A DNA stretch of 64,000 nt. Origin: an uncultured Syntrophaceae bacterium. GTDB lineage: Bacteria; Desulfobacterota; BSN033; UBA1163. Position numbers and translations under genes: made by a program. A model generated the notes under the pieces. The model saw nothing but the letters and a program-made list of their open reading frames with translations, was not told the origin of the DNA and made no database searches. Where the stretch lies: positions 30,282 to 94,281 of the forward strand of contig CAYMJV010000001.1 of the NCBI GenBank assembly GCA_964390545.1, written 5' to 3'. Each line of letters begins with the position of its first letter. Position 1 is the first letter of the stretch. Below, piece after piece: positions 22,753 through 47,848 of the stretch.

Positions 22753-23652
22753 TCATTTGATGAGATTCAAACTCTTTAGGAAATCACGGGCCACTTCCTC
22801 TGCTGGCTGCTTCTTACCATCGACTGTATAGTTTAAAGTAGCCATCGTTATATCACTGATTTTCCCAGCCAACTTGTTTAGGATATCGGCCACTTGAGGA
22901 CCCTTAGCAAGGAGATCATCTCTAACGACTGGGGCAGCATAATAGGGAGGAAAGAACTTAAGATCATCCTCCAAGACAACTAAGTTGAATGCCGGGATAC
23001 GGCCATCGGTTGCGAACCCCGAGATCACATCCACTTGATTTTCTGCGATCGCCTTATAGACCAGTCCAGGGTCCATTCCCTTCTGGTCTTTAAATTTAAG
23101 GTCATAAAATTTTGTGAGCCCTGGGACTCCATCGGGTCTTGCCAAGAACTCAATGGTAGCTCCGAAGATGAGGTCTTTTGCATAGGGCTTCAAGTCAGAG
23201 ACCTTTTTAGCCTTCAGGCGATCTGCATCGGCTTTTCGCATCACGATGCAATAAGTATTGTTAAATCCCCAAGATTTCAGCCAAGTTAATTTAAACTTCT
23301 CCTCATACTCTTTTTTTACAATCTGGTAGGCCTCATCAGGATCTTTCACTGCCGGCTTTTTGAGAATGGCAGTTAGGCCGGTTCCGGTATACTCAACGTA
23401 GACATTGATATCTCCACGGACAATGGCCTCATGACATATGACTGTTCCTCCCAAACCTATCTTCCGGTCCACCTTGAAACCATTGTTCTCCATCAAAAGG
23501 GCTACCATATTTCCTACTATGGTCTGTTCTGTAAAGCCTTTTGATCCAACAATGATCACGGGTTTCTCCTGTCCCTTTGCTTCCTGAAAAAAGGCAGGAA
23601 TCAAAGCCACAAATACCACTGCCATCACTAGAACCATTCCAATTCTTCTCAT
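22753..23652 (-). CDS. Glycine betaine/choline/proline-betaine-type ABC transporter substrate-binding protein (OpuAC/ProX-like)
   Basis: Signal peptide, and the OpuAC-fold family is recognisable (VGSKGFTEQTIVGNM...YTGTG). Confidence 0.75.
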   Translation of the reverse strand: MRRIGMVLVMAVVFVALIPAFFQEAKGQEKPVIIVGSKGFTEQTIVGNMVALLMENNGFKVDRKIGLGGTVICHEAIVRGDINVYVEYTGTGLTAILKKPAVKDPDEAYQIVKKEYEEKFKLTWLKSWGFNNTYCIVMRKADADRLKAKKVSDLKPYAKDLIFGATIEFLARPDGVPGLTKFYDLKFKDQKGMDPGLVYKAIAENQVDVISGFATDGRIPAFNLVVLEDDLKFFPPYYAAPVVRDDLLAKGPQVADILNKLAGKISDITMATLNYTVDGKKQPAEEVARDFLKSLNLIK

Positions 23653-23683
23653 TTTACTCCCTCCTTTTTGTAATCGAAAACAT

Positions 23684-24319
23684 CTATTGAGTAGTAGATC
23701 CTTTTCTTAACCGCCTCTCCGCAACCCCTAAGAGCATGTCTGCACCAATGGCTAATATTGCTGTTGGTATGGACCCAGCGAGAAGAAGGTTCGTGTCTGC
23801 CATCACGATTCCTTGAAAGATCAGATCGCCTAATCCTCCGGCCCCGATCAAAGCAGCCAATGTGGCTATACTGATACTCAATACTGTCGCCGTTCTAATG
23901 CCAGCCATGATCACCGGAAAAGATAAAGGAAGCTCAACCAGGGTGAGGATCTGTCGGTCTTTCATTCCTATTCCCCTGCCTGCTTCGATGAGCGAACGAT
24001 CCACGTTTATAATCCCAGAATAGGTGTTGTTGATGATCGGAAGCACACCTCGGAGAACTAAGGCAAAAACAGCTGGTTTCAAACCAATCCCAAGAAGGGG
24101 GATCACCAGCCCGAGGATAGCAAGGCTTGGAATTGTCTGGCCAATGTTTGCTGAATTGACCACCACGTGTGCAATTTTTCGATACCGTGTGATGAGAATT
24201 CCCAGGGGGATGGCAATGACCACCGAGAGGAAAATAGCGATGGCGCTCACCTCCATGTGCCGTAGAGCAGAAAGAAGGATGACTTCCCTCTTCTCAAAAA
24301 GATAGAACAAAAACTCCAT
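23684..24319 (-). CDS. Osmoprotectant/quaternary-amine ABC transporter permease (OpuBB/OpuCB-like)
   Basis: Permease of about 210 aa with 5-6 TM segments, typical of OpuB/C permeases. Confidence 0.75.
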   Translation of the reverse strand: MEFLFYLFEKREVILLSALRHMEVSAIAIFLSVVIAIPLGILITRYRKIAHVVVNSANIGQTIPSLAILGLVIPLLGIGLKPAVFALVLRGVLPIINNTYSGIINVDRSLIEAGRGIGMKDRQILTLVELPLSFPVIMAGIRTATVLSISIATLAALIGAGGLGDLIFQGIVMADTNLLLAGSIPTAILAIGADMLLGVAERRLRKGSTTQ

Positions 24320-24363
24320 TTCACCTCCTTTCGGATTTCAATGTTTTGTCCAACCCCTTAAGA

Positions 24364-25020
24364 TTAATGGCGCAAACCTGAAGGCGTCAAAAATCTTTCT
24401 AACAGGACAAAGAAATAGTCTGTACCTATAGCGAGCAAGATAACTGGAACCGCCCCTGCAATGATCTGTTCGGTGTAAACACTGGCAATCCCTCTGAAGA
24501 TTAACCAGCCCAATCCTCCAGCTCCAATATAAGCGGCAATGGTGGCTGTACCAATGTTCATGACCGCGGCGGTTCGAATACCAGCCATGATGACCGGAAG
24601 AGCCAAGGGAAGTTCCACCATCCTTAAGAACTGCCAACTACTCATCCCCATGCCCTTTCCTGCCTCGATCACAGCCCGATCGATTTGAGTAATTCCCACA
24701 TAGGTATTCCGAATCAAAGCCAGTTGTCCGTAGAGTATTAATGCGATCACAGCCGGTTTCACCCCAATCCCGATAAAAGGAATGAGCATTCCAAAAAGGG
24801 CAAGGCTCGGGATCGTATAGATGACGCCAGCAATCCCAATCACTGGGGTCACAAGTTTTCTTATTCGTGTGATCGATATTCCAATAGCGACTCCAATGAT
24901 GGTCGAGATAATCACAGCCATCATCGCAACCTCAATATGTTCCAAAGTGAGTTTAAAGATCAATCCCAAATTCTTGATAAAGTAGTGGAGGATACTCAAG
25001 AGGCTCCCTCCTGATTCCAT
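24364..25020 (-). CDS. Osmoprotectant/quaternary-amine ABC transporter permease (second permease)
   Basis: Paralogue of the 23684..24319 product. Confidence 0.75.
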   Translation of the reverse strand: MESGGSLLSILHYFIKNLGLIFKLTLEHIEVAMMAVIISTIIGVAIGISITRIRKLVTPVIGIAGVIYTIPSLALFGMLIPFIGIGVKPAVIALILYGQLALIRNTYVGITQIDRAVIEAGKGMGMSSWQFLRMVELPLALPVIMAGIRTAAVMNIGTATIAAYIGAGGLGWLIFRGIASVYTEQIIAGAVPVILLAIGTDYFFVLLERFLTPSGLRH

Positions 25021-26132
25021 CCTTCTGAAGAGAAGAAACAGGCAAAATGGGTCATCGTCACAATTCCTTTTAGTCGTTCTTCCTCATCGACTACGGGCAA
25101 CCAAACTACCCCTTTTCTTAACATTAATTCTAAAGTCGGCCTGATCTCTTCTTCTGCTTTCACGGTAGGAATATCTTGATCCATCAATTCTTTCACACTT
25201 CCCTGGTTTCGGTCTGTGAGAAGCTCAAATCGAATCACCCCTCGAAAGACCTCATGGTCATCCACAACCAGAAGGATATCGCTCTTTCTCTCCTCCATCA
25301 CTCTTTTTGCTTCGGCAACCCCGCTTCTTTCTGTAATATGATTCAATGCTGGCACCATAATGTCTGAGATCTTCAATAGTTTCATAAGCTTTAATCCACA
25401 GTCTTTGCCCACGAAATCCTTCACAAACTCATCAGCCGGTTCTCCCATGATCTTCTTTGAGGTGTCAAATTGTACAATCTTTCCAGTTCTCATCACAGCA
25501 ATCCGATCACCCAACTTGATCGCCTCATCGATATCGTGAGTGACAAAGAGAATGGTTTTCTTGATCTTTAAGCGAAGTCTCAAAAACTCATCCTGCAATT
25601 GAGCCCTCGTAATCGGATCAAGAGCTCCGAACGGTTCATCCATCAAGATCACAGGAGGGTCTGCCGCCAATCCCCGGGCAACCCCTACCCGCTGCCTCTG
25701 GCCACCTGAAAGTTGATGAGGATAGCGATCTTTGAAAGCTGATGGTTCAAGGTCTACAAGCCTTAGAAGCTCATCGACCCGCGTCCCCTGGGTAGTGATA
25801 GACCAACCGATCAGTCGAGGAACAAGAGAAATATTCTGTGCTACTGTCATATGAGGGAAAAGACCTACGTCCTGGATCACATAACCAATGCTACGCCGAA
25901 GAGCGATCACATCGATCTTGGAGGTGTCTTTTCCATTCAAGTAGATGTTTCCATCGGTGGGCTGCTCTAAACGGTTTAAGAGTTTGATGGTCGTCGTTTT
26001 TCCGCATCCCGAAGGACCCAAGAATACGTCACATTCCCCTTCATAGATCTCGAAGCTCAAATCGTCAACGGCCTTCGTGCCCCCCGGAAAAACCTTGCTC
26101 ACTCTGTTAAATCTGATAATCGTACGAGTCAC
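24996..26132 (-). CDS. Glycine-betaine-type ABC transporter ATP-binding protein with C-terminal CBS domains (OpuAA/ProV/OpuCA-like)
   Basis: Walker [18 protein letters not shown] signature and a C-terminal CBS pair. Confidence 0.85.
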
Positions 26133-29921: not shown

Positions 29922-30470
29922 TCAGAGCATTCGGACTTCTGCCTTTATCGTTAATTCCTCTCCCTTTTTTAGAACCTCTTTAGGAGAAGGATTCAAAATA
30001 TGAACAATCAATCCATCCAGTTCAATGATCACCCCTTCACCCAGGATATGCTTTCCAGGGATGAGGGTGAGGGTCTTTGACCCTTTTTGAATCGACTGGG
30101 GATAGGCAAGAGGAGCCTCGGTATAAATCTCAATCTGAGTGGGTCGGTCTAAGGGAATCTCGGCCTGGAAAGAGGCCGCGCCTGAAGTCCCATATATCGT
30201 CTCCCCTCTTTGCCGGGGCCGAACCATGATTCTTTCGGTATCGCCCGTTCCTCCCTCCTGTTTGCCCTGAGCAAGGATCTCTCCAGTCTCGAGATTCCTA
30301 ATTCGAACAAAGGCACCCCCTACGCCTGAACCAATAACTTTGGAATCCTTTGCAACCACTCGGACAATAATTTTTGTCGGAACCTTTTCAGCAGAATAAG
30401 ATGGGGATGTGAATAGAAAGATGATATGAGCTAAAATGAGAAAGAACGGCACAAATCTTCGGATTGTCAT
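29922..30470 (-). CDS. Secreted hypothetical protein (signal peptide, Gly/Ser/Thr-rich)
   Basis: ORF with an N-terminal signal sequence. No recognisable family. Confidence 0.5.
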   Translation of the reverse strand: MTIRRFVPFFLILAHIIFLFTSPSYSAEKVPTKIIVRVVAKDSKVIGSGVGGAFVRIRNLETGEILAQGKQEGGTGDTERIMVRPRQRGETIYGTSGAASFQAEIPLDRPTQIEIYTEAPLAYPQSIQKGSKTLTLIPGKHILGEGVIIELDGLIVHILNPSPKEVLKKGEELTIKAEVRML

Positions 30471-30591
30471 TGTTCACCTACTCACTTTTAACCTATCTCC
30501 CATATAGCATTCTGCATTCTGCCTTCTGCTTTCTGCCTCCGACCTCTAACGTTCTTGCTAATACAAAAGCATTTTGCTCCATGACGATTCT

Positions 30592-30647
30592 GTAGGGCAT
30601 GATCCCCGATCATGCCATCAGCGGTGCGTTCGGGGAACGCACCCTAC
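30592..30647. repeat. REP/BIME-like pair of inverted GTAG-headed palindromic units immediately 3' of hemY
   Basis: GTAGGGCATGATCCCCGATCATGCC and the inverted GGTGCGTTCGGGGAACGCACCCTAC. The same units occur in swapped orientation at 47769-47848. Confidence 0.7.
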
Positions 30648-30670
30648 GGATCTTCCACCCTCTAACCTCC

Positions 30671-32173
30671 TTAGTAGTACCGTTTCTCCTCAGCGTGGTC
30701 CTCGGCAAGGTCGATGCCCCACTCACCGAGGATCTTCGAGACGGCCCGCTCTCCGCTCTCGATGCAGTTCGGTACGCCTACACCCCTGTAGCTACCACCG
30801 GCGAGCGCAAGACCGGGGATCTGGGCACTGTGATCCTCGATCATTGTCACACGGTCAAGGTGTCCAAGTGTATACTGGGGCATGCCAAGCTGCCACCGAA
30901 ACACACGCGAGAAGAGCGGCTTTGCAAACGGGTTGAGACCCAGGATGTCACGGAACTCGGCAAGTACCGTCTGCACGAGTTCCTCGTCCGAGCGTTTCAA
31001 AATCTCCTGATTGTGCGGACCTCCGACAAAACCGCGCAGCAACACCTTTCCCGCCGGTGCCCGACCCGGCCACTTGGTAGAAGAATAAGTAGCCGCCATG
31101 AGCGCACGGCCCTCCACAAGGGGGCATAGAACTCCGAAGGCATTCAGATTGAAACCGACCTCGTTCTCGTTGAAGGCGATCGAGATTGTCGCTGAGGAAG
31201 AGGCCGGTATGTTTGTCAGTGCGTCTGCGATGGCCCGGTCGTGCCGACGAATGAGCGGTTCGGCAGCCCATGACTCCGTTGCAATGATCACGGCGTTGCC
31301 TTCGATGGCAGAACCGTCGGAGGTCGAAGCACGCCATCCACCTCCGGAGGTTCGTTGGAGTGAGCTGATAGATACGCCCGTGCGCATGCGCTCACGACCT
31401 GCGGCATCGGCCATGCTGTCCGTGAGTTGCTGCATTCCTTTCACAAACGAGGTGAAGAAGGTACGAGGCTTCTCGCCTGGCTTCGCCGGGTACTTACGCC
31501 GCATCTCCTCCACCTTACGGCGGATTGCGATGAAGGCCTTCAACAGAGACCCATAATTTTGCTCCATCTCAAGGAGACGCGGGAAGGTTGCAGCAAGCGA
31601 CATCTGTTTCGGATCGGACGCATGTACGCCTCCCACGAGAGGCTCGGCCAGGCGATCCAGGCATTCGCGACCCATCCGCCGGACCACGAAGCTTTCGAGT
31701 GTCTCGTCATTCACCTCGCCGGGTGTGACCTTCTTTGGCGGGATCAGGAGGTCCATGGCCATCCTGATTTTCCCAGACCACGAGAAGAGGCCGGTCGTAG
31801 CAAAAGGCACGAACTTTGTGGGCGCGAACATCATGACACCATCCGGCATCTGATGAAGTTTGCCTCGAGACAGGATCCACGTCCGTCTCCGGGAGTCGTC
31901 GGTCGGCAACTCGTCATCGAAGATCCCCGTTAGCTTCGCGATACGGTGACAAGCTGGTTTTTCAGTCAAGAAACAATCCGGCCCACCGTCGACGATGAAG
32001 CTGCTCTCCTCCGAAGGATCCATAACGACCTCGGTCTGGATCTTTCCACCGAGGCGACGGTCTTTTTCCAGCAGAACGAACTCGACGTCGTGGCCCTCGG
32101 AAGCGGCACGGGTGATTTTATAAGCTGCGCCGAGCCCGGCAACGCCGCCACCGACAATAATGATCCGTTTCAT
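30671..32173 (-). CDS. hemY: Protoporphyrinogen/coproporphyrinogen III oxidase (HemY/CgoX family, FAD-dependent)
   Basis: N-terminal FAD motif IIIVGGGVAGLGAAY. Family length of about 500 aa. Lies in a hemE-hemH-hemY arrangement. GC content is far above its flanks. Confidence 0.8.
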   Translation of the reverse strand: MKRIIIVGGGVAGLGAAYKITRAASEGHDVEFVLLEKDRRLGGKIQTEVVMDPSEESSFIVDGGPDCFLTEKPACHRIAKLTGIFDDELPTDDSRRRTWILSRGKLHQMPDGVMMFAPTKFVPFATTGLFSWSGKIRMAMDLLIPPKKVTPGEVNDETLESFVVRRMGRECLDRLAEPLVGGVHASDPKQMSLAATFPRLLEMEQNYGSLLKAFIAIRRKVEEMRRKYPAKPGEKPRTFFTSFVKGMQQLTDSMADAAGRERMRTGVSISSLQRTSGGGWRASTSDGSAIEGNAVIIATESWAAEPLIRRHDRAIADALTNIPASSSATISIAFNENEVGFNLNAFGVLCPLVEGRALMAATYSSTKWPGRAPAGKVLLRGFVGGPHNQEILKRSDEELVQTVLAEFRDILGLNPFAKPLFSRVFRWQLGMPQYTLGHLDRVTMIEDHSAQIPGLALAGGSYRGVGVPNCIESGERAVSKILGEWGIDLAEDHAEEKRYY

Positions 32174-32223
32174 AAGGATTCCCCGCCCCTCCAATCTTTT
32201 TCCCTGCCTACCGCAGGCAGGTT

Positions 32224-33150
32224 TCAGGGCAGAGGGGATATATTAAGGATATGCTCTTCCACGATCACTGAAAGGGCCTCGATGAATTTTTCAGAATAAT
32301 TGAGAGAGGTGGTCCGCTTCAATTTTATTCCTAAGGATTTTGCTTTCTCCCGATAGACGATATCGATATCGTAAAGAATCTCAATATGGTCTGAAACAAA
32401 CCCAATCGGGACGATGAGAACCCTTTGGACTCCCTCTTTAGATAGATTCGTCAGGACAGACTCCACATCCGGACCGACCCACTCTTCTGGCCCGCCTCCT
32501 TTGCTCTGAAAAGCCATCCTCCAGACTCGATGCTCAAGCCCGTCGGCAACTCCTTGAATGCTTGCTTCGATCTCCCTTACATAGGGATCTTTCTCGACGA
32601 TTGATTTTGGAAGACTGTGAGCCGTGAAGAGGAGCTGAACTCTCTTTCTCTCCTCTGGAGTGAATCCTGTCAGCCCTTCACGGACCTTCTCCCGAATGGC
32701 TTCAAGGAAAAGGGGGTGCATGTGCCACCCCACTACAAAAGAAACCTTTAACACCTCTCCGATATTTTTCTGGACCCGCTTCACCTCTTCAATATAGGCC
32801 CCCGTGCTCTCACGGGATTGGAACGGGGCCATGGGAATAGCAACCACCTCCATGATCCCATCCCGCAGAATCTCGTTCATCGTCTCTTCAATCATGGGAT
32901 GGCCATAACGCATTCCCACATAGGATTTGAATGAATGACCTTTCTCGCTCAACCTCTTTTCTAATCCCTTGGCCTGTCCCTGGGTGATCTTAAGAAGGGG
33001 CGAAGCCCCTCCGATCAACCGATAACGCTCCTTAACCCTTTCCAGTTGCTCTGCAGAAGGTTTTCGACCTCTGAAAAGGCGCGTTAAGAAGGGCTCAACT
33101 TCGGCAAGGGAGTGAGGCCCTCCAAAGGCCAAAAGGAGGAGAGCTTTCAT
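32224..33150 (-). CDS. hemH: Ferrochelatase (HemH/CpfC)
   Basis: Ferrochelatase motifs (LLLAFGGP, RYGHPMIEE, FTAHSLP). Confidence 0.85.
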   Translation of the reverse strand: MKALLLLAFGGPHSLAEVEPFLTRLFRGRKPSAEQLERVKERYRLIGGASPLLKITQGQAKGLEKRLSEKGHSFKSYVGMRYGHPMIEETMNEILRDGIMEVVAIPMAPFQSRESTGAYIEEVKRVQKNIGEVLKVSFVVGWHMHPLFLEAIREKVREGLTGFTPEERKRVQLLFTAHSLPKSIVEKDPYVREIEASIQGVADGLEHRVWRMAFQSKGGGPEEWVGPDVESVLTNLSKEGVQRVLIVPIGFVSDHIEILYDIDIVYREKAKSLGIKLKRTTSLNYSEKFIEALSVIVEEHILNISPLP

Positions 33151-33178: not shown

Positions 33179-33219
33179 AATTCCCTCTCCCTCGCCTACG
33201 GGGGAGAGGGAATTTTTTG
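33179..33219. repeat. G-rich palindrome (AATTCCCTCTCCC-tcgcctacg-GGGGAGAGGGAATT) plus T-run between hemE and hemH; member of the CCCTC..GAGGG palindrome family
   Basis: Perfect 13-bp arms read directly, followed by TTTTTT. Confidence 0.6.
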
Positions 33220-33229
33220 AGGAGTTTTA

Positions 33230-34297
33230 TTAATGGGAAGATTTTGCGCTATACTCATGAACCGACTCAACCAACGCAGCTACATTTTCGACCGGTGTGT
33301 TAGGAAGGATTCCATGTCCGAGATTGAAGATGTGACCAGATCGACCTCCAACACGATCAAGAATTCTCTTAACCTCCTTCTTAATCAGATCCACCGATCC
33401 AACCAAAATAACGGGATCGAGGTTTCCCTGGATGGCCACCTCATACCCTAACCGTGCCCATGCCTCTCCAATATCCATCCGCCAATCCACTCCAATCACG
33501 TCCCCGCCTGCCCGCTTCATCAACTCCAGAAGAGTCGAGTTGGAAGTGGCGAAGTGAATGAGAGGAATACTCTTATCGATACCGTCGATCACCCTCTTCG
33601 AATAAGGAAGAACATATTCCTCATAATCAGTTGGACTCAAACAACCTACCCAGGAATCAAAGAGCTGAACGGCTTGCACACCAGCGCGAATCTGTGCGTT
33701 AAGGCAGCGGATCAATACATCTGAAATCTTATTCATTAAGGCATCCCATGAAGGCCGGTTTTGATACATCAACCCTTTGGTGAGAATATAATTTCTTGAA
33801 TGGCCTCCTTCGATGATGTAGCTGGCGAGGGTGAAGGGAGCGCCAGAGAACCCAATCAGTGGAATTTTTCCTTCCAACTCTTTCCGCACCATTCGAATCG
33901 CTTTCACCAGAAAAGGGACTTCTTCTTCCGGCTCAATGACTCTCAGCTTCTCAATATCTTTCATCCCCCTGACCGGGTGATGGAAAACAGGACCCTCCCC
34001 CTTTGCAAATTCAAACTCCACTCCCATGGGTTCCAGGGGGATCAGGATATCTGAAAAGATAATGGCTGCATCGAGTTTGAATTTCTCAATGGGTTGGAGC
34101 GTCACCTGGGCGGCTATCTCAGGATTCTTACACATCTCCAGAAAAGAATATTTCTTTCGCAGGGTACGGTACTCCTTCATGTAGCGCCCTGCCTGACGCA
34201 TCAGCCAGATGGGTGTGTATTCGGTGGGTTGCCTATGACAAGCCATTAAAAAAGGGTAGTGGTTTTCAGTTTTTGTCATATTCAGTAGCGTCGGCAT
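33230..34297 (-). CDS. hemE: Uroporphyrinogen decarboxylase
   Basis: PIWLMRQAGRYMKEYR is the canonical HemE N-terminal motif. The true start may be the internal ATG at about 34279. Confidence 0.85.
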   Translation of the reverse strand: MPTLLNMTKTENHYPFLMACHRQPTEYTPIWLMRQAGRYMKEYRTLRKKYSFLEMCKNPEIAAQVTLQPIEKFKLDAAIIFSDILIPLEPMGVEFEFAKGEGPVFHHPVRGMKDIEKLRVIEPEEEVPFLVKAIRMVRKELEGKIPLIGFSGAPFTLASYIIEGGHSRNYILTKGLMYQNRPSWDALMNKISDVLIRCLNAQIRAGVQAVQLFDSWVGCLSPTDYEEYVLPYSKRVIDGIDKSIPLIHFATSNSTLLELMKRAGGDVIGVDWRMDIGEAWARLGYEVAIQGNLDPVILVGSVDLIKKEVKRILDRVGGRSGHIFNLGHGILPNTPVENVAALVESVHEYSAKSSH

Positions 34298-34375: not shown

Positions 34376-35878
34376 TCACCTGGTCCCCTTTCCCCAATCC
34401 CTTAGGAACTGGATTAACAACCTCACTCCTACTCCAGTGCCTCCCTTTGGAATATAGGGTCTCTCTTTTTCAATAGAGGCCGGACCCGCAATATCGAGAT
34501 GGACCCACGGAATCTTCTCTACGAATTTGCTCAAGAAAATGCCCCCAATGATCGCACCTGCAGCCCGGGTTCCCACATTTCTAAAATCTGCCACATCGCT
34601 CTTCAAATATTCAAAGTATTCATCCCAGAGGGGGAGTCTCCAGACCTTCTCCCCTGTTTTTTCTGAAGCCTCTTCGATCCGTTTCAAAAGAGATGCATCA
34701 TTACCTAAAAGACCAATCACATAATCTCCAAGGGCGATCACGCACGCTCCGGTCAGAGTCGCAAGATCAATGATCGCCTTCGGCTGGTATCGAAGACTAT
34801 AGGTCAAGGCATCGGAAAGAATGAGCCTTCCTTCGGCATCAGTGCTGATAACCTCTACCGTCTGACCTGATAGGGTCTTTAAAACATCTCCGGGCTTATA
34901 AGCCTTTCCGCTTGGAAGGTTTTCTGTCGCCGGGATGATCCCTACCAGATGAAGGGGAATCTGAAGCCTGGAAGCAGCTTGCATCATGGCCAACACCGCT
35001 GCAGCCCCTGACATATCATCCTTCATCCGTTCCATTCCTTCCGAGGGTTTAATCGAAATCCCGCCGCTGTCGAAAGTGATTCCCTTACCTATCAAAGCGA
35101 TGGTGTCGAACCCTTTGTTCTTATTATGTTCGAGGATGATGAACTTTCCAGGTTCTTGGCTTCCCTTGGCCACAGCAGTAAAGGCTCCCATCCCCATGGC
35201 CTCTGCCTGACTCACTTCTAAAACCTGAAGCTCCATGCCATGGTCCTTTGCAATCTGCTGAGCCTTTTCGGAGAGTAAAGTCGGGGTGACTTTATTGCTG
35301 GGACCATTGACCAGGTCCCTTGCCCCGCAAACCGCTTCTGCAATAATTCTGCCTGTCCCCACTCCGTTATTAAGCGATTTCAATTCGACGGCTGTCTCTC
35401 CAAGGATGATTCCCTCTTCGATCTCCTTGATCTTCTCCCTCTCCAGGGTTTTATACTCATTGTATTGGTAGACTCCAAGGAGAAGCCCTGCGACAAAGGC
35501 CTCGGCAAGTTCTTCTTCTGCAAGCCGATCAAACTTCTTGATTTGGAAGGCAAACTGTTTTATTCCTGCATCCCGGAGGTACTGTCCAGCCTTCGAAGAA
35601 GCTCCCCGCCATTTTTCTAAATCGAATTCTCCTCTCTTCCCCAGACCGGTCAGCAACACTCTCTTCGCAGGAAAAGCCCCCTGGGTGTAGAAAAGCTTCC
35701 GTTCAAATAACTCCCCCTTGAAATCTCCCTGGTTCATCAGACTGGAGATAAAACCCTTCCATTCCAGGTCCACATTTTTTATAGGACCTTCCAGAGGCTC
35801 GGGAAATTCAAAAGAAAAGAGAATCAGAAGTTCACAGGGAAATTTTTCAGCCTTTCCTTTTTCTACTCGGATCTGCAT
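34376..35878 (-). CDS. pepA: Leucyl aminopeptidase (M17 family)
   Basis: M17 catalytic-domain motifs (NTDAEGRL, GKGITFDSGG). Confidence 0.85.
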   Translation of the reverse strand: MQIRVEKGKAEKFPCELLILFSFEFPEPLEGPIKNVDLEWKGFISSLMNQGDFKGELFERKLFYTQGAFPAKRVLLTGLGKRGEFDLEKWRGASSKAGQYLRDAGIKQFAFQIKKFDRLAEEELAEAFVAGLLLGVYQYNEYKTLEREKIKEIEEGIILGETAVELKSLNNGVGTGRIIAEAVCGARDLVNGPSNKVTPTLLSEKAQQIAKDHGMELQVLEVSQAEAMGMGAFTAVAKGSQEPGKFIILEHNKNKGFDTIALIGKGITFDSGGISIKPSEGMERMKDDMSGAAAVLAMMQAASRLQIPLHLVGIIPATENLPSGKAYKPGDVLKTLSGQTVEVISTDAEGRLILSDALTYSLRYQPKAIIDLATLTGACVIALGDYVIGLLGNDASLLKRIEEASEKTGEKVWRLPLWDEYFEYLKSDVADFRNVGTRAAGAIIGGIFLSKFVEKIPWVHLDIAGPASIEKERPYIPKGGTGVGVRLLIQFLRDWGKGTR

Positions 35879-35899
35879 AGGTCCCCCTAAATTCAAAAT

Positions 35900-36082
35900 C
35901 CCCCTCACCTTTATCCTCTCCCCTCAGAGACTGTGTCGTAATGTCATTCTGAGGCGTTAGCCGAAGAATCTCTGTTTTCTAACTTATTGATTCTATGAGA
36001 TTCTTCACTTCGTTCAGAATGACAAGCATGGCATTTCCCTCATTGCGACACACTCTCTCAGGGGAGAGGGGTGGGTGAGGGG
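35900..36082. mobile_element. MITE-like element: G-rich terminal inverted repeats (CCCCCTCACC...CCTCTCCCCTCAGAGA / TCTCAGGGGAGAGGGGTGGGTGAGGGG) enclosing a ~120-nt core with its own inner inverted repeats
   Basis: The arms are reverse complements of each other. Solo-palindrome versions of the same arms occur at 59088-59136 and 61368-61416. A core fragment (GTTCAGAATGACA) recurs at about 47925. Confidence 0.5.
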
Positions 36083-36093: not shown

Positions 36094-37302
36094 TTACTCT
36101 CTTTCCTTCAACTTCGATACAGTGATCGAACGGCTCTCTTCCAGACTCGAGAACTCCTTCACCTTTTTCATTAACAGAGAATCCCATTTTCCCCGCTCGA
36201 TCACTCTGGAGAGCATCCAGGGATTTAAATCGGAAACCTCCATCCACTTCCCTGCTTTTTTGATCAACTCGTCCAGCACCCTCCGCCTCTGGTCCCCCTT
36301 CAAAGGATACTTCTGTTTCGTCTCGATCTTGATCTTTGCCACATGATCACTTCCATAGACGGCCTCGAGTTCTTCCCGCTGGGCGTAGGCATAGAGGGCT
36401 TCTTCAAGCTTCGCCAATTCGGCATCGATCTCTTCATTCAAGAGTCTTTTTCTCTCCTTCATCGCCACATATCGGTTGACTAAAGTGACCCCTTCTTCAT
36501 TCATATATTCATTCAACGGAAGGGCTTCAACCATGACCAGATGTTTCCGTTTCGGACAGAACCCCTGATAATCGCACCAATTGCAAAGAGGCCCTTCTTT
36601 GGGAAGAAATTGCCTGTCCGACTCAATCTCCTGAATGAGGTCCATGGTCTCCCGGCGGAGCTGCTGGAGTTCTTCAGGATTCCTTGAAGAAGTAATTTCG
36701 GTATCGAAGGCGAGGTAGTGCCATACCAATCTGATTTCCAGGATATCCTTCCATTTTCCTTCCACTCCCATGTGATAGAAGGCAAGTTGACGATCGGAAT
36801 CCACATCTTCCTGGGTGGGAAGCCGACTGGAAGTTTTGTAGTCATGGATTTCAAGGACAGAATGATCTGAAAGGGCCAAGCGATCGATAAAACCCCGGAT
36901 CCAGTAGCCCTTTTCTTCGTCCAGGGGGAAGTAAATATTCTCTTCAAGACCTAATGTCTTACCCTGATCAAATGGATAATAGCGTTTGTAATATTCCGTG
37001 ATGCATTTCTCCCCCAGACGGCGGTAATCTTCGGCAGTGTAATCCTTGCGGATGATCTGAATCATTTCTTCATTCCAGTTCTTCTCCCAGTCCCGACGGT
37101 AGTAGTCGAGAATCTCCTCCAGCGTATTCAGTTTGGTCACTTTCAGATCGCGGTAGAGCTTTTCCAGCGCTTCGTGAACCCTTGAACCCATGAAGGCTTC
37201 AATCCCCTCTGTTTCGATTTTGATTTTATCAATATATGCAAGTTTATACTGGTGGGGGCATGTCTCATAGGTGGATAGCTGCGAGTGAGAGTAGGTTGGC
37301 AT
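36094..37302 (-). CDS. PD-(D/E)XK nuclease-superfamily protein, Cas4/RecB-like with 4-Cys Fe-S cluster ligands and C-terminal coiled-coil extension
   Basis: N-terminal Cys (TCPHQY), an IHDYKTS D-x-K motif and a C-terminal CNWCDYQGFC cluster. Stand-alone gene. Confidence 0.6.
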   Translation of the reverse strand: MPTYSHSQLSTYETCPHQYKLAYIDKIKIETEGIEAFMGSRVHEALEKLYRDLKVTKLNTLEEILDYYRRDWEKNWNEEMIQIIRKDYTAEDYRRLGEKCITEYYKRYYPFDQGKTLGLEENIYFPLDEEKGYWIRGFIDRLALSDHSVLEIHDYKTSSRLPTQEDVDSDRQLAFYHMGVEGKWKDILEIRLVWHYLAFDTEITSSRNPEELQQLRRETMDLIQEIESDRQFLPKEGPLCNWCDYQGFCPKRKHLVMVEALPLNEYMNEEGVTLVNRYVAMKERKRLLNEEIDAELAKLEEALYAYAQREELEAVYGSDHVAKIKIETKQKYPLKGDQRRRVLDELIKKAGKWMEVSDLNPWMLSRVIERGKWDSLLMKKVKEFSSLEESRSITVSKLKERE

Positions 37303-37463: not shown

Positions 37464-38177
37464 ATGAACTTAAAAAGGGAACTGGAAAACTTGCAAAAAG
37501 TTGTAATCCAATGCCGCAAATGCCCCAGACTTGTCGCTTACCTTAAAGAAGTGTCAAAAAATAAACCCAAGAGATTTCGCGATTGGGATTACTGGGGGAA
37601 ACCCCTTCCGAGTTTTGGCGATCCAAATGCCCGAGTTCTCATTATCGGGCTTGCTCCGGCAGCCAATGGCGGAAATAGGACAGGACGGATGTTTACAGGA
37701 GACCGGAGTGGAGAATGGCTGTTTGGTGCTCTTCATCAATTTGGCTTTGCCAATCAGCCAAATTCCGCTCGGAGGGATGACGATTTTGCTTTGCATGATT
37801 GTTATATTACGGCGACGATTCGTTGCGCCCCACCGGACAACAAACCCTTACCGGAAGAAATAGAGAACTGCAGACCTTATTTTTTAAAGGAACTCGATCT
37901 TTTGAAAAATGTGAGGGACTTAGTTCCCTTGGGCCAGATCGCTTTCACACAGACTTTGAAATCCCTGAGGTTACGAGGAGTCGAAATTCCTTCACTAAAA
38001 TTTGGACATGGAAAGACCTTTTCGCTTCGAACTCCGAACTCCGTAGGGAACGCAGATCTGCGTTCCCTACGGACTTTAATTACGACCTACCATCCAAGCC
38101 AACAAAATACCCAGACTGGAAGACTGACCAGACCGATGTTTCATAAGATCTTTAGAATGCTACAAAAGAGATTATAG
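37464..38177 (+). CDS. Uracil-DNA glycosylase, family 4 (Fe-S type)
   Basis: CRKCPRL Fe-S motif, GLAPAANGGNRTGRMFTGD active-site loop and a C-terminal H motif. Confidence 0.8.
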   Translation: MNLKRELENLQKVVIQCRKCPRLVAYLKEVSKNKPKRFRDWDYWGKPLPSFGDPNARVLIIGLAPAANGGNRTGRMFTGDRSGEWLFGALHQFGFANQPNSARRDDDFALHDCYITATIRCAPPDNKPLPEEIENCRPYFLKELDLLKNVRDLVPLGQIAFTQTLKSLRLRGVEIPSLKFGHGKTFSLRTPNSVGNADLRSLRTLITTYHPSQQNTQTGRLTRPMFHKIFRMLQKRL

Positions 38178-38630: not shown

Positions 38631-39032
38631 ATGGAAAAATATCGAGACTCCGGATTGAAATTAACGCCTCAAAGGCTTGCCATTCTGGAATACCTCGATG
38701 GAAATAAAGAGCACCCTTCGGCAGAAGATATCTATAGAGCAGTCTCAAAAAAATTTCCGACCATGTCGTTAGCGACGGTGTATAATACGTTGATGACCCT
38801 AAAGCAGCGAGGACTTGTAAAAGAACTTACCATGGATCCTCTTAGAATGCGTTTTGATCCTCAACCCACCCCCCACCATCACCTCATCTGTATGGACTGC
38901 CGAAAGATCATCGATATTCACATCCGGTTAAGGGTCAACTTGCCAGAAATGGAACAGGAAGGATTCGAAATCGTAGGCAACCATATTGAATTTTACGGTC
39001 GGTGTCCAAAATGCAAGAATAAGAAACATTAA
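38631..39032 (+). CDS. perR: Fur-family transcriptional regulator, PerR-like
   Basis: Fur-family HTH and metal sites (HHHLICMDC...CPKC). Assigned as PerR because peroxide-stress genes follow. Confidence 0.75.
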   Translation: MEKYRDSGLKLTPQRLAILEYLDGNKEHPSAEDIYRAVSKKFPTMSLATVYNTLMTLKQRGLVKELTMDPLRMRFDPQPTPHHHLICMDCRKIIDIHIRLRVNLPEMEQEGFEIVGNHIEFYGRCPKCKNKKH

Positions 39033-39075
39033 GTCATTCAATTCCAATAATAAAAATTAAGGGAGGAAAAGGACG

Positions 39076-39573
39076 ATGGCAAAGTCAGAACAATTTTTAA
39101 AAGAGGCCTTTGCAGGAGAATCACAGGCGAACAGGAAGTATTTGGCTTTCGCAGCTAAGGCCGATCAGGAGGGCCATCCTCAGGCGGCCCGACTCTTTCG
39201 AGCTGCGGCAGAGGCAGAAACCGTTCACGCCCATAATCATTTAAGAACCCTTGGGGGCATCAAGAGCACCAAAGAAAACCTCCAAGAGGCCATTGCGGGT
39301 GAAACCCATGAGTTCAAGAAGATGTATCCGGAAATGATCGACGCGGCCAAAGCTGAGGCAAACAAGGCAGCAGAAAGAAGCTTTAACTTTGCGAATGAAG
39401 TTGAGAAAATTCACGCCCAGCTCTATCAGAAGCTTCTTGATGGTTTGGGAAAGTCTAAGGAAAACTATCCCTACTATGTCTGCCCCGTATGCGGATTCAC
39501 GGCGGAGAAGGCAGCTCCGGGAGTCTGCCCTGTTTGTGGAACCAAAGGGGAGATGTTCAAAAAGATCGAATAA
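39076..39573 (+). CDS. rbr: Rubrerythrin (di-iron ferritin-like domain + C-terminal rubredoxin-like CxxC-x12-CxxC)
   Basis: ExxH di-iron motifs and the C-terminal CPVCG...CPVCG rubredoxin domain. Confidence 0.85.
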   Translation: MAKSEQFLKEAFAGESQANRKYLAFAAKADQEGHPQAARLFRAAAEAETVHAHNHLRTLGGIKSTKENLQEAIAGETHEFKKMYPEMIDAAKAEANKAAERSFNFANEVEKIHAQLYQKLLDGLGKSKENYPYYVCPVCGFTAEKAAPGVCPVCGTKGEMFKKIE

Positions 39574-39620
39574 TGAGAGGACAGTCAGATGAGGAATGCA
39601 TAAAGAAGAAAGGGGGTTTT

Positions 39621-40136
39621 ATGAGTGAACGAAAAGGGCTAGTAACGTTCATGGGGAATCCATTGACCTTGATTGGAAATGAGGTGAAAGTTGGAGAATC
39701 AGCGCCCGACTTCGTCGTCCTGGACAACAACCTCTCACCGGTCAAACTTTCTTCCTTTCGTGGGAAAATATGTGTGCTCTCATCTGTCCCTTCTCTTGAT
39801 ACTCCAGTCTGTGACATGGAGACAAGGAAGTTCAACGAGGAGGCTGGACGGTTAGGAAAGGACATCGCCATCCTGACCATCAGTATGGATCTGCCCTTTG
39901 CGCAGAAGCGCTGGTGCGCCGCAGCTGGAGTGAATCAGGTCCAAACTCTATCGGATCACCGCGAGGCTTCTTTTGGAAACTCCTTTGGGGTTCTGATCAA
40001 GGAGCTCAGATTGCTTGCAAGAGCGGTCTTCCTCATAGACCGAAAGGGAGTGATCCAGTATGTTCAGCTCGTGAAAGAGGTCTCAAGGGAACCAGACTAC
40101 GAGGCGGTATTCAACGCACTAAAAAAACTGCAATAA
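39621..40136 (+). CDS. tpx: Thiol peroxidase (Tpx, atypical 2-Cys peroxiredoxin)
   Basis: SVPSLDTPVC peroxidatic Cys motif and a resolving Cys (CAA). Confidence 0.8.
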   Translation: MSERKGLVTFMGNPLTLIGNEVKVGESAPDFVVLDNNLSPVKLSSFRGKICVLSSVPSLDTPVCDMETRKFNEEAGRLGKDIAILTISMDLPFAQKRWCAAAGVNQVQTLSDHREASFGNSFGVLIKELRLLARAVFLIDRKGVIQYVQLVKEVSREPDYEAVFNALKKLQ

Positions 40137-40149
40137 ACGGGGGAAAAAG

Positions 40150-40725
40150 ATGAAGAGAAAGTTAATGCCATTCGCTTTGATGGCCGTTCTTTTCTTAACG
40201 GTCAGTTCATCCATCCACGCGGCTGACAAGCCTCCACAGAAGGGGGAATCGCTTCCTGTCATTAACCTTCCTATTCCAAAGAGCCCTGCTGAGAAGAGCT
40301 ATCTGGGGCTTACTGGAGTAGGATCTTTCAAAATACCCCAGATCAAGGCCAAGGCGGTGATCATTGAGATTTTTAGCATGTACTGCCCCTACTGTCAGAA
40401 GGATGCACCCGGAATCAACGAACTCTACACTCTTATTGAAAATGATCCCGACCTCAAGGGGAAAATAAAACTACTAGGTATCGGGGCTGGAAATACGCCC
40501 TTCGAAGTGGGCGTCTACAAAAAAACTTACGCGGTTCCCTTCCCCCTCTTCCCGGATCAGGATTTCACGATTCACAAGGCCTGTGGAGAGGTAAGAACCC
40601 CATACTTCATCGTTGTTAAAATCAACGAGGACGGGAGCCATCTGATTGTTCACTCTCAGTTGGGGGAATACCCAGGGGCAAAACCATTCCTGGAATTAGT
40701 CCTCAAATCTTCAGGCCTTCAATAG
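40150..40725 (+). CDS. Secreted thioredoxin-fold thiol:disulfide oxidoreductase (TlpA/ResA-like)
   Basis: Signal peptide and a CPYC active site within a thioredoxin fold. Confidence 0.7.
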   Translation: MKRKLMPFALMAVLFLTVSSSIHAADKPPQKGESLPVINLPIPKSPAEKSYLGLTGVGSFKIPQIKAKAVIIEIFSMYCPYCQKDAPGINELYTLIENDPDLKGKIKLLGIGAGNTPFEVGVYKKTYAVPFPLFPDQDFTIHKACGEVRTPYFIVVKINEDGSHLIVHSQLGEYPGAKPFLELVLKSSGLQ

Positions 40726-40737
40726 GAGGAGGATGCC

Positions 40738-41346
40738 ATGAAAAAGAGAAGAGCCTTTCATCTCACATGGGTTATCGGGGCCCTCTCTCTCTGTGCCTTT
40801 ATCCCCATGGTCTACGCCATCTCAGACGCCTTCAAGCAGAATATTTATAACGTCGGGACGCTCAAACCGGTCGACAGTATCCTGAAGGTGAAGGCAGGAG
40901 ACCGCGCTCCCGATTTTACCCTCCCGTCCATCTCTGAAGAAAAAGTTTCCCTGAACCAGTACCGGGGGAAGAAGAATGTGGTTCTCTCCTTTGTACCTGC
41001 AGCGTGGACACCGGTCTGTTCAGATCAGTGGCCAGGGTACAATATCGTAAAGGACATCTTCGACGAGAATAATGCCATCCTGCTAGGCATTACGGTGGAC
41101 AACATCCCTACCCTCTATGCATGGACCAATCAAATGGGTAAATTGTGGTTTCCCGTACTCTCCGACTTCTGGCCGCATGGAGCCGTTGCCCAAAAATATG
41201 GGGTGTTAAGATCGAACGGCGTTTCTGAAAGAGCTTTGTTTGTGATTGATAAAAAGGGGATCGTTCGTTACATCAACGTCAATGACATTAACAAGAGACC
41301 CTCTCTAGAAGATCTTATCAATGCGTTAGAAAAGCTAAATAAGTAG
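40738..41346 (+). CDS. Peroxiredoxin (AhpC/TSA-PrxQ/BCP-like), exported
   Basis: Signal/TM N-terminus and the FVPAAWTPVCS peroxidatic motif. Confidence 0.75.
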   Translation: MKKRRAFHLTWVIGALSLCAFIPMVYAISDAFKQNIYNVGTLKPVDSILKVKAGDRAPDFTLPSISEEKVSLNQYRGKKNVVLSFVPAAWTPVCSDQWPGYNIVKDIFDENNAILLGITVDNIPTLYAWTNQMGKLWFPVLSDFWPHGAVAQKYGVLRSNGVSERALFVIDKKGIVRYINVNDINKRPSLEDLINALEKLNK

Positions 41347-47768: not shown

Positions 47769-47848
47769 GTAGGGTGCGTTCCCCGAACGCACCATCATGG
47801 TGAGCTCTTGTTAAACTATTTAAGGCGTGCTCGGGGATCACGCCCTAC
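47769..47848. repeat. REP/BIME-like pair: GTAGGGTGCGTTCCCCGAACGCACC, a ~30-nt spacer, then inverted GGCGTGCTCGGGGATCACGCCCTAC
   Basis: Reverse-complement relationship to the units at 30592-30647, verified by eye. Confidence 0.7.

What the first reader, a model, noticed from the sequence alone, without database searches (positions are those of the whole stretch)
30560..32225. hemY within hemE-hemH-hemY is a compositional island (about 60% GC versus about 47% in flanks) bounded by repeat elements: probable in-situ xenologous replacement
The reverse-strand hemY coding sequence is visibly GC- and GC3-rich (GGC GTT GCC GGG CTC GGC GCA...). By contrast, hemH and hemE immediately upstream and the secreted-protein gene downstream have ordinary composition. 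The GC-rich block begins at the GTAG-headed REP pair (30592-30647) right after the hemY stop. It ends at the palindrome CCTGCCTACCGCAGGCAGG (32203-32221) just 5' of the hemY start. Such repeats are plausible recombination or insertion hot-spots. The hemEHY operon organisation itself is the one associated with the coproporphyrin-dependent haem branch.
Basis: partly seen in the sequence, partly recalled or inferred. Interest (0 to 1): 0.6.

Follow-up and report, generated by a model that had tools for sequence, protein, structure and literature searches.

The report
Foreign hemY swapped into haem operon
The GC-rich hemY gene in this haem-synthesis operon came long ago from high-GC Actinomycetota and replaced the original hemY at the same position, which makes it a clean but ordinary example of one gene in an operon being displaced by horizontal transfer.

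Summary
hemY (30671-32173, minus strand) is 58.3% GC, against 48.4 +/- 2.7% for 60 other ORFs, and is the highest in the window. The island matches the coding sequence.

The core interpretation also holds.
- About 25 related genomes (Syntrophaceae-like Thermodesulfobacteriota MAGs) share the block PDDEXK-M17-hemE-hemH-hemY.
- Their HemY is about 72% identical to HemY of Coriobacteriia/Anaerosomatales MAGs (62-67% GC). There the gene has native composition and sits in hemE-hemH-hemY.
- HemE (53%) and HemH (35%) from the same loci do not group with those Actinomycetota.
- Some Actinomycetota carry tandem paralogs, hemY1-hemY2. The window's HemY falls within the Y2 branch.
- One basal relative (L053) keeps the same block. 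Its HemY is only 42% identical, of the type expected from HemE/HemH, and shows no GC island.

So this is an ancient, lineage-wide, in-situ xenologous displacement that is partly ameliorated. The GC excess shrinks as branch length grows.

The flanking repeats are real (a REP-like doublet and a palindrome). They are genome-specific intergenic elements, absent from these positions in relatives, and are not relics of the transfer.

This is a new member of a known kind. Interest is modest.

The parts
30671..32173 (-). hemY (CgoX-type porphyrinogen oxidase, 500 aa). This is the xenologous gene and the GC island.
   Evidence: TIGR00562 at 271 bits, Pfam Amino_oxidase. 58.3% GC, z = 3.7. 67-75% identical to Coriobacteriia/Anaerosomatales HemY. 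CgoX signature residues F240 and R380 are present.
32224..33150 (-). hemH (ferrochelatase, 308 aa). Host-like composition; not from the hemY donor lineage.
   Evidence: TIGR00109 at 243 bits. GC 49.6%. 35% identical to Actinomycetota HemH, against 46% to other operons. Best PDB match is B. subtilis ferrochelatase 1ak1/1doz.
33230..34297 (-). hemE (uroporphyrinogen decarboxylase, 355 aa). Host-like composition.
   Evidence: TIGR01464 at 440 bits. GC 47.7%. 53% identical to Actinomycetota HemE, against 60% to other operons.
34376..35908 (-). M17 leucyl aminopeptidase. Syntenic anchor upstream of hemE.
   Evidence: Pfam Peptidase_M17. Found at the same position in all related loci, including L053.
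36094..37302 (-). PD-(D/E)XK nuclease family gene. Syntenic anchor.
   Evidence: Pfam PDDEXK_1. Conserved neighbour in relatives and in L053, where it is 76% identical.
30592..30647 (.). REP-like doublet: two inverted GTAGGG-headed 9-bp hairpins, 24 nt beyond the hemY stop. A later, genome-specific insertion.
   Evidence: Sequence. Second copy at 47769-47848. Folds as two hairpins with no T-tract, and no terminator-like site falls on it in the scan. Absent downstream of hemY in 17 relatives.
32203..32221 (.). 6-bp-stem palindrome CCTGCC-N7-GGCAGG in the 50-nt hemH-hemY spacer.
   Evidence: Sequence. Near copy at 2970-2988. Related CCTGCC...GGCAGG and CCCTCTCCC...GGGAGAGGG elements lie at other intergenic sites in relatives and are not positionally conserved.
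33179..33214 (.). Palindrome AATTCCCTCTCCC...GGGAGAGGGAATT in the hemE-hemH spacer. It shows that such repeats are not specific to the hemY borders.
   Evidence: Inverted repeat I2: 16-nt arms, 94% complementary.
47769..47848 (-). Second copy of the REP-like doublet, with a longer spacer between the hairpins.
29922..30470 (-). Gene for a 182-aa protein with a hydrophobic N-terminal segment that looks like a signal peptide, downstream of hemY. Host-like GC.
   Evidence: No Pfam or NCBIfam hit. Translation. 69-79% identical orthologues lie downstream of hemY in several relatives.

Best explanation
WHAT THE GENE DOES. hemY encodes the FAD-dependent porphyrinogen oxidase of a hemE-hemH-hemY operon transcribed on the minus strand. 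It is the CgoX type, which oxidises coproporphyrinogen III to coproporphyrin III.

WHERE THE GENE CAME FROM.
- The gene is not native to this diderm, Syntrophaceae-like Thermodesulfobacteriota lineage.
- It derives from the hemY2 paralog of high-GC, anaerobic Actinomycetota (Coriobacteriia/Anaerosomatales-like).
- The common ancestor of most of the lineage acquired it. There it took the place of the resident, isofunctional hemY directly downstream of hemH.
- Since then it has been inherited vertically with its neighbours.

WHY THE ISLAND REMAINS.
- The GC island is the partly decayed compositional imprint of the donor.
- Purifying selection keeps the Gly/Ala/Arg/Pro-rich protein sequence in place.
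- Synonymous sites have drifted most of the way to host usage.

SHOWN: foreign phylogenetic origin; native composition in the donor group; a shared syntenic slot; a relative that keeps a different hemY in that slot; co-divergence with the flanks; an excess that declines with branch length.

INFERRED: direction and single timing of the transfer; the enzyme activity; the recombination mechanism, of which no trace is left.
For: COMPOSITION.
- hemY is the GC maximum of the window.
- Its codon usage is donor-like: Arg CGN 92% vs 59% in the other ORFs, GAC 68% vs 33%, GAG 81% vs 47%, CAC 78% vs 35%, TTC 77% vs 46%, ATC 79% vs 52%.

SYNTENY.
- PDDEXK-M17-hemE-hemH-hemY occurs in about 25 independent assemblies of the lineage. 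These include contigs of 0.88 and 2.2 Mb.
- hemY is GC-enriched in all 22 genomes tested, by +0.03 to +0.11.

DONOR GROUP.
- Actinomycetota MAGs of 62-67% GC carry hemE-hemH-hemY. Their hemY has the same GC as its neighbours.
- It co-diverges with HemE and HemH there (r = 0.75-0.76).

PAIRWISE IDENTITIES.
- HemY: lineage vs Actinomycetota .72; within Actinomycetota .75; vs other operons .43.
- HemE: .53, .76 and .60 for the same comparisons.
- HemH: .35, .56 and .46.

NJ BOOTSTRAPS.
- HemY lineage + Actinomycetota clade: 100%.
- HemE and HemH never join the Actinomycetota (0-0.5%).
- With the tandem paralogs Y1/Y2 found in Actinomycetota: Y1 monophyletic 100%; lineage + Y2 96.5%; lineage nested within Y2 86%.

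OTHER.
- The affinity to Actinomycetota runs the whole length of the protein.
- Within the lineage, HemY distances track HemE and M17 distances (r = 0.79). Four-fold-site identity in hemY (.40-.53) is like that of the flanks (.33-.48).
- The hemY GC3 excess falls with root-to-tip depth (Spearman -0.59, p = 0.004).

THE RELATIVE THAT KEPT THE OLD GENE (L053).
- It groups with the lineage on HemE + HemH (100%) and has the same block.
- Its 475-aa HemY is 42% identical to the lineage's HemY. It groups with the HemY of the outgroup operons (100%) and has flank-like GC (.38).
Against: - Trees are neighbour-joining on Kimura distances only. No likelihood method was available.
- Taxonomy rests on MAG record titles.
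- L053's position is unresolved. Carriers of the Y2 type are monophyletic to its exclusion in only 17% of replicates, and L053 pairs with L030 in 48%. A second displacement in L053 is therefore not excluded.
- Four-fold sites of hemY in this genome are no longer unusual (rank 12 of 61), while two-fold sites still are. A simple amelioration model does not predict that difference.
- The depth correlation uses phylogenetically non-independent points.
- No ChdC/HemQ gene was found in the window, so the pathway assignment is indirect.
Confidence: 0.8

Rival explanations
1. Addition rather than replacement. The ancestor had only hemE-hemH at this site. The Actinomycetota hemY was inserted downstream of hemH. 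L053 gained its different hemY separately.
For: One outgroup operon, L050 (Nitrospinota), has hemE-hemH without hemY, and it has the HemE most similar to the window's (66%). L053's position is unresolved.
Against: Four of five nearest HemH outgroup loci, plus L055, L056 and L059, have hemY directly after hemH. L053's HemY is related to exactly those outgroup HemYs, as vertical descent together with HemE and HemH predicts.
Confidence: 0.12
2. Whole-operon transfer. hemE-hemH-hemY came together from Actinomycetota, and hemE and hemH then diverged and ameliorated faster.
For: Donor and recipient share the gene order hemE-hemH-hemY.
Against: HemE and HemH are further from the Actinomycetota (.53.35) than from unrelated operons (.60.46). 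They never group with the Actinomycetota in bootstraps. Within the lineage HemY evolves only slightly more slowly than HemE (0.75x), so rate differences cannot explain the gap. hemE and hemH show no GC excess.
Confidence: 0.03
3. Reverse direction. The Actinomycetota acquired hemY2 from this Thermodesulfobacteriota lineage.
For: In some Actinomycetota hemY2 is an extra tandem copy next to hemY1, as an acquired gene might be. Y2 is monophyletic to the exclusion of the lineage in 13.5% of replicates.
Against: The gene is compositionally native in the Actinomycetota and anomalous in the Thermodesulfobacteriota. Y1, the sister of Y2 + lineage, was found only in Actinomycetota. The lineage is nested within Y2 in 86% of replicates. 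L053 and the outgroup operons show what the lineage's vertical HemY looks like.
Confidence: 0.04
4. No transfer. hemY is GC-rich because of its amino-acid needs or selected codon usage (high expression), and it resembles actinobacterial HemY through functional constraint.
For: Four-fold-site GC is not unusual, and part of the excess lies in GC1 and GC2. C-ending two-fold codons together with CGT and GGT can mark highly expressed genes.
Against: L053 and the outgroup operons encode functional-looking HemY with flank-like GC. The low-GC members L022 and L030 have lost the synonymous excess. 72% identity across phyla, with HemE at 53% and HemH at 35%, is not explained by constraint.
Confidence: 0.02
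5. Recent, genome-specific insertion mediated by the flanking REP-like and palindromic repeats.
For: Repeats lie within 24-30 nt of both ends of the gene. They are multi-copy.
Against: The same gene occupies the same slot in more than 20 diverged relatives that lack these repeats there. The two flanking elements are unrelated to each other, and no direct repeats flank the gene. There are no integrase or transposase genes nearby.
Confidence: 0.01

Closest known systems
Xenologous gene displacement in situ, giving 'mosaic operons' (Omelchenko, Makarova, Wolf, Rogozin and Koonin, Genome Biology 2003; recalled from memory; the phrase appears in 58 papers of the library, e.g. PMC4481853)
   Same: One gene of a conserved operon is replaced at the same position by a distant homologue from another phylum. 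Its neighbours keep the vertical signal. Detection is by incongruent trees.
   Different: Here the donor clade, a paralog-level origin (Y2), a relative that retains the displaced gene type, and a graded compositional decay across about 22 descendants can all be seen.
Bacillus subtilis hemEHY operon of the coproporphyrin-dependent haem pathway (CgoX structure 3I6D)
   Same: Same gene order. HemY's best solved relative is B. subtilis 3i6d (253 bits). HemH's best is B. subtilis ferrochelatase. The CgoX signature residues F227 and R364 are conserved (criteria from PMC10740692).
   Different: The host is a diderm: LptD and a lipid A acyltransferase are in the window. The protein is about 30 residues longer. 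The operon is phylogenetically mosaic. No chdC/hemQ was seen in the window.
Known horizontal-transfer history of the HemY/HemG/HemJ oxidases (Kobayashi et al. 2014 Genome Biol Evol, cited in PMC10740692) and the CgoX/PgoX phylogeny (PMC10740692)
   Same: Porphyrinogen oxidases are already known to have a patchy, transfer-rich distribution. Actinomycetota CgoX forms its own clade.
   Different: The literature searches run here turned up no report of this Coriobacteriia-to-Syntrophaceae-like case. They also turned up no report of the tandem Y1/Y2 duplication in Coriobacteriia.
REP/REPIN elements (GTAG-headed extragenic palindromes mobilised by RAYT transposases; recalled from memory)
   Same: GTAGGG head, short GC-rich hairpin, inverted doublet, intergenic location, several copies.
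   Different: Only three sites occur in 64 kb. No RAYT gene was seen in the window. The stem sequences differ between relatives. They are unrelated to the hemY transfer.

Membership tests
HemY-type porphyrinogen oxidase (TIGR00562 / Pfam PF01593) | Full-length match to the family model above the curated cutoff | tested here: met
   TIGR00562 at 271.3 bits (cutoff 97.85), residues 1-482. PF01593 E = 2.5e-51.
HemY-type porphyrinogen oxidase (TIGR00562 / Pfam PF01593) | N-terminal FAD-binding Rossmann motif GxGxxG | tested here: met
   MKRIIIVGGGVAGLGAAY in the translation. PF13450 hit.
CgoX (coproporphyrinogen III oxidase) as opposed to PgoX | Phe at B. subtilis position 227 and Arg at 364 (criteria of PMC10740692) | tested here: met
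   Window F240 and R380. Both are invariant in 23 lineage, 12 Actinomycetota and 4 outgroup sequences.
CgoX (coproporphyrinogen III oxidase) as opposed to PgoX | Groups with monoderm (Actinomycetota/Bacillota) CgoX rather than deltaproteobacterial PgoX | tested here: met
   Clade with Coriobacteriia HemY at 100%. The B. subtilis CgoX 3i6d scores higher than the M. xanthus PgoX 2ivd (253 vs 207 bits).
Coproporphyrin-dependent haem pathway | Coproheme decarboxylase (ChdC/HemQ) encoded in the genome | not testable with these tools
   No Chlor_dismutase-family ORF among the annotated ORFs of the 64-kb window. The rest of the genome is not available.
Coproporphyrin-dependent haem pathway | Ferrochelatase of the CpfC type | tested here: inconclusive
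   The best PDB matches are B. subtilis and other CpfC entries (about 198 bits). Human ferrochelatase scores nearly as well (184 bits).
Xenologous gene displacement in situ | Gene tree incongruent with the trees of adjacent operon genes | tested here: met
   HemY + Actinomycetota clade 100%. HemE and HemH + Actinomycetota 0-0.5%.
Xenologous gene displacement in situ | The same slot in a related genome holds a distant, vertically congruent homologue | tested here: met
   L053 has the same PDDEXK-M17-hemE-hemH block. Its HemY is 42% identical and groups with outgroup-operon HemY at 100%.
Xenologous gene displacement in situ | Donor lineage identifiable, with the gene compositionally native there | tested here: met
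   In Coriobacteriia/Anaerosomatales MAGs hemY GC equals the GC of hemE, hemH and the locus (.62-.67). Taxon names.
Mobile genomic island / element-mediated insertion | Flanking direct repeats, an integrase or transposase, or a tRNA target | tested here: not met
   No direct repeats flank the gene. The neighbours are housekeeping genes. The two flanking elements are unrelated to each other and absent in relatives.
REP/REPIN elements | GTAG-headed imperfect palindrome, multi-copy, extragenic, often as inverted doublets | tested here: met
   30592-30647, 47769-47848 and 38043-38070.
REP/REPIN elements | Cognate RAYT (TnpA_REP) transposase in the genome | not testable with these tools
   None among the window ORFs that were annotated. 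The rest of the genome is unavailable.

The most novel reading that the evidence does not exclude
hemY2 may be a functionally distinct CgoX variant that arose by tandem duplication in anaerobic Coriobacteriia, for example one better suited to very low oxygen or to another electron acceptor. It would then have won out repeatedly: hemY1 was lost in the Anaerosomatales-like genomes that keep only Y2, and Y2 crossed phyla to displace the resident CgoX of an anaerobic Syntrophaceae-like family. In that family it now evolves more slowly than HemE. If so, the displacement was adaptive rather than neutral. It would also point to an uncharacterised way of running the 'oxygen-dependent' step of haem synthesis in strict anaerobes.
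Probability: 0.12. Interest if true: 0.6.

Novelty: new member of a known kind. Interest (0 to 1): 0.35.

Why it matters
This is an unusually complete natural example of single-gene displacement inside an operon. The following can all be read from public assemblies:
- the donor clade and paralog;
- the recipient clade;
- a relative that still carries the displaced gene type;
- a series of about 22 descendants in which the donor's compositional imprint decays with branch length.

That makes it useful as a calibration case for amelioration models and for methods that detect transfer from composition. Here four-fold sites have already equilibrated, while amino-acid-driven GC and two-fold sites have not.

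Biologically, it shows a monoderm-type CgoX working in a diderm anaerobe's haem operon. It also reveals a tandem hemY duplication in Coriobacteriia. It does not change how haem synthesis or gene transfer is understood.

Tried and rejected
- START COORDINATE. My first hemY start coordinate (32172) was off by one and gave a frame with stop codons. It was corrected to 32173.
- EXACT LOOK-UP. An exact-sequence look-up of the window's HemY found nothing.
- L021. It looked like a relative with 88% HemY but only 48-51% HemE and HemH. It turned out to be a frameshift-ridden assembly and was dropped.
- BIOPYTHON IDENTITIES. The 'identity' distances are distorted by shared gap columns. I recomputed identities over aligned residues only and quote only those.
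- MISLABELLED PARALOG. 'ACT_L045' in the early HemY trees was the Y1 paralog. The trees were redone with the paralogs labelled.
- NAMING OUTGROUPS. The listing of cluster members gave no taxon names for the nearest HemH outgroups. Their loci were fetched instead.
- NATIVENESS OF hemE. A HemE search from L050 showed that 62-69% relatives span Thermodesulfobacteriota, Nitrospinota and Bacillota. HemE therefore cannot show whether hemE and hemH are themselves 'native'.
- POLARISED SUBSTITUTIONS. I considered polarising GC-to-AT against AT-to-GC synonymous changes on the window/L001 pair. I rejected it because four-fold sites are only 53% identical even for this closest pair, and parsimony would be biased towards GC ancestors.
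- TERMINATOR. No terminator-like site falls on the REP doublet: it forms two hairpins with no T-tract.
- CHIMERA OR MIS-ASSEMBLY. Rejected as an explanation of the GC island, because the same arrangement recurs in more than 20 independent assemblies, including megabase contigs.
Full report
WHAT IS THERE

The region holds a minus-strand operon: hemE (33230-34297), hemH (32224-33150) and hemY (30671-32173, ATG at 32173, 500 aa). The assignments rest on Pfam and NCBIfam matches well above the curated cutoffs. An M17 aminopeptidase and a PD-(D/E)XK nuclease gene lie upstream. A gene for a 182-aa protein with a signal-peptide-like hydrophobic N-terminus lies downstream. The window also encodes LptD and a lipid A acyltransferase, so the host is a diderm.

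THE OBSERVATION

- hemY is 58.3% GC. The other 60 ORFs average 48.4% (sd 2.7), giving z = 3.7, and no other ORF exceeds 54.7%.
- The richest 1503-nt stretch of the window is 30604-32106 (58.7%). The best stretch elsewhere is 54.2%. The steepest GC changes fall at about 30604 and about 32238, which are the gene ends plus the GC-rich repeats next to them.
- The excess is spread over all codon positions and is uniform along the gene.
- At finer grain it is uneven. Four-fold-site GC is ordinary (.606, rank 12 of 61). Two-fold-site GC3 (.726) and the Gly/Ala/Arg/Pro fraction (.32) are each the highest in the window.
- Codon choice is donor-like: Arg is 92% CGN, and GAC, GAG, CAC, TTC and ATC are preferred.

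THE REPEATS

- 30592-30647 is an inverted doublet of GTAGGG-headed 9-bp hairpins. A second doublet lies at 47769-47848 and a related hairpin at 38043-38070.
- It folds as two hairpins without a T-tract. No terminator-like site falls on it in the scan.
- The spacer palindrome 32203-32221 has a near copy at 2970-2988.
- A similar CCCTCTCCC...GGGAGAGGG palindrome sits between hemE and hemH.
- In 17 related loci the spacers around hemY are hypervariable. They carry other members of these repeat families or none, and never these elements at these positions.
- The repeats are therefore real, but they are later intergenic colonists of this genome.

RELATIVES

- HemY has more than 120 database clusters at 83-93% identity. 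Those with names are labelled Thermodesulfobacteriota, Deltaproteobacteria or Syntrophaceae MAGs.
- About 25 fetched loci share PDDEXK-M17-hemE-hemH-hemY. They include contigs of 0.88 and 2.2 Mb, so assembly artefact is excluded.
- hemY is GC-enriched relative to its neighbours in all 22 genomes tested (+0.03 to +0.11).
- HemY is the most conserved protein of the block.
- Four-fold-site identity between the window and these relatives is about the same in hemY (.40-.53) as in the flanks (.33-.48).
- Pairwise HemY distances track HemE and M17 distances (r = 0.79; flank against flank is 0.78-0.84).
- The gene has therefore been inherited vertically with its neighbours since before the lineage radiated.

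THE DONOR

The same scan found HemY at 67-75% identity in MAGs labelled Coriobacteriia, Anaerosomatales or Actinomycetota (two are labelled Eubacteriales). Their loci are 62-67% GC. hemY sits in hemE-hemH-hemY and has exactly the GC of its neighbours.

Identities over aligned residues:

| Protein | Lineage vs Actinomycetota | Within Actinomycetota | Lineage vs nearest other operons |
|---|---|---|---|
| HemY | .72 | .75 | .43 |
| HemE | .53 | .76 | .60 |
| HemH | .35 | .56 | .46 |

The nearest other operons were found with a search of HemH against the clustered representative-protein library. They are hemE-hemH(-hemY) loci from a spore-forming Firmicute, a Nitrospinota genome and unassigned contigs.

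Neighbour-joining bootstraps (200 replicates):
- HemY lineage + Actinomycetota: 100%.
- HemE and HemH with Actinomycetota: 0-0.5%.
- HemE and HemH with the other operons: 85-87%.

Further points:
- The actinobacterial affinity holds in every 50-residue window of HemY.
- A reverse search from an actinobacterial HemY returns Coriobacteriia/Actinomycetota proteins at 75-85%, with the Thermodesulfobacteriota proteins interleaved at 73-75%.

PARALOGS FIX THE DIRECTION

- Eight clear actinobacterial loci carry two tandem hemY genes, as hemE-hemH-hemY1-hemY2; L046 shows weaker, fragmentary matches. The others carry only Y2.
- The window's HemY is Y2-type: 67-75% identity against 50-63% to Y1.
- With the paralogs labelled: Y1 is monophyletic (100%); lineage + Y2 excludes Y1 (96.5%); all three exclude the outgroups (100%); the lineage is nested among actinobacterial Y2 in 86% of replicates.
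- HemY also co-diverges with HemE and HemH within the Actinomycetota, and its composition is native there.
- Together these favour transfer from Actinomycetota to the Thermodesulfobacteriota lineage.

REPLACEMENT IN PLACE

- A metagenome scan seeded with the most divergent lineage HemH recovered L053, a 162-kb contig of 36.9% GC.
- It has the same block: PDDEXK 76%, M17 72%, HemE 69% and HemH 59% identical to the window. It joins the lineage on HemE + HemH with 100% support.
- Its 475-aa HemY is only 42% identical to the lineage's HemY. It is 56-59% identical to three of the outgroup-operon HemYs (L048, L055, L061) and groups with the outgroup-operon HemYs at 100%. Its GC matches its flanks (.38).
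- The same slot thus holds two different hemY types within one lineage. The type that is congruent with HemE and HemH shows no GC island.
- Whether L053 branches before all Y2 carriers is unresolved (17% against 48% for pairing with L030). A second displacement in L053 cannot be excluded.

AMELIORATION

- The hemY GC3 excess falls with root-to-tip depth measured on HemE + HemH (Spearman -0.59, p = 0.004, n = 22; the points are not independent).
- In the long-branch, low-GC members L022 and L030 the excess is essentially gone (+0.006 to +0.013).
- A rough inference from four-fold-site identities suggests that 20-45% of an initial GC3 excess of about 0.3-0.4 should remain. That is compatible with the observed 0.14.
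- GC1 and GC2 stay high because the Gly/Ala/Arg/Pro-rich protein is under purifying selection.
- A simple amelioration model does not explain why two-fold sites lag behind four-fold sites in this genome.

FUNCTION

- The best solved relative is B. subtilis CgoX 3i6d (253 bits), against 207 bits for M. xanthus PgoX.
- The two residues reported to distinguish CgoX, F227 and R364 (PMC10740692), are present as F240 and R380. They are invariant in all groups compared.
- The displacement was therefore between isofunctional enzymes.
- No chdC/hemQ is in the window, so use of the coproporphyrin-dependent route is inferred, not shown.

NOVELTY

Transfer-rich histories of porphyrinogen oxidases and in-situ xenologous displacement in operons are both established (PMC10740692 and its citation of Kobayashi 2014; Omelchenko et al. 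2003, from memory). The literature searches run here turned up no report of this particular case or of the Coriobacteriia Y1/Y2 duplication. It is a new member of a known kind.

VERDICT

It is ancient and lineage-wide, and it is not repeat-mediated. Interest is modest (0.35).

Noticed in passing
L025 3419-6475; L026 8440-11494; L028, L033, L036, L037, L039, L045 (same layout): A subset of Coriobacteriia-like MAGs carries two tandem HemY-family genes, as hemE-hemH-hemY1-hemY2. The two copies are about 58-64% identical to each other. Anaerosomatales-like MAGs keep only the Y2 copy.
   Followed up: partly
window 30592-30647, 38043-38070, 47769-47848; L018 11064-11091; L034 3274-3301; L003 3760: A GTAGGG-headed hairpin (REP/REPIN-like) family occurs across the lineage. 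The stem sequences differ between genomes. No RAYT-like gene was seen in the window.
   Followed up: partly
window 33179-33214 and 32203-32221; spacers of L001, L003, L004, L009-L011, L017, L041: Nested palindromes of the form CCCTCTCCC...GGGAGAGGG, sometimes enclosing CCTGCC...GGCAGG, are scattered through the intergenic spacers of the haem operon in many relatives, at varying positions.
   Followed up: partly
window 13863-26132: Two MttB-family methyltransferase genes, a corrinoid-binding protein, an OpuAC-type betaine-binding protein and ABC transporter genes lie together. This is probably a quaternary-amine (glycine betaine-like) demethylation cluster. The ORFs at 17587-18924 (MmgE/PrpD) and 20912-22585 (an SBP_bac_5 solute-binding protein) are the lowest-GC ORFs of the window (40-42.5%).
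   Followed up: no
window 38631-41346: A Fur-family regulator, a rubrerythrin and three peroxiredoxin/AhpC-like genes form an oxidative-stress cluster about 6 kb from the haem operon. The same genes flank the block in L004.
   Followed up: no
window 42997-43458 and 50163-51284: A phage Mu GemA-like ORF and a DndB-like (DNA sulfur modification-associated) ORF occur in otherwise housekeeping surroundings.
   Followed up: no
L021 (whole locus): This long-read MAG contig is riddled with frameshifts and broken ORFs. That made HemE and HemH look only 48-51% identical while HemY looked 88% identical. It is an assembly artefact, not biology.
   Followed up: yes
L050 4789-6999: A Nitrospinota genome has hemE-hemH followed by PALP/ThiS/ThiF/DsrE/TusA sulfur-carrier genes and no adjacent hemY. 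Its HemE is the closest outgroup to the window's (66%).
   Followed up: partly
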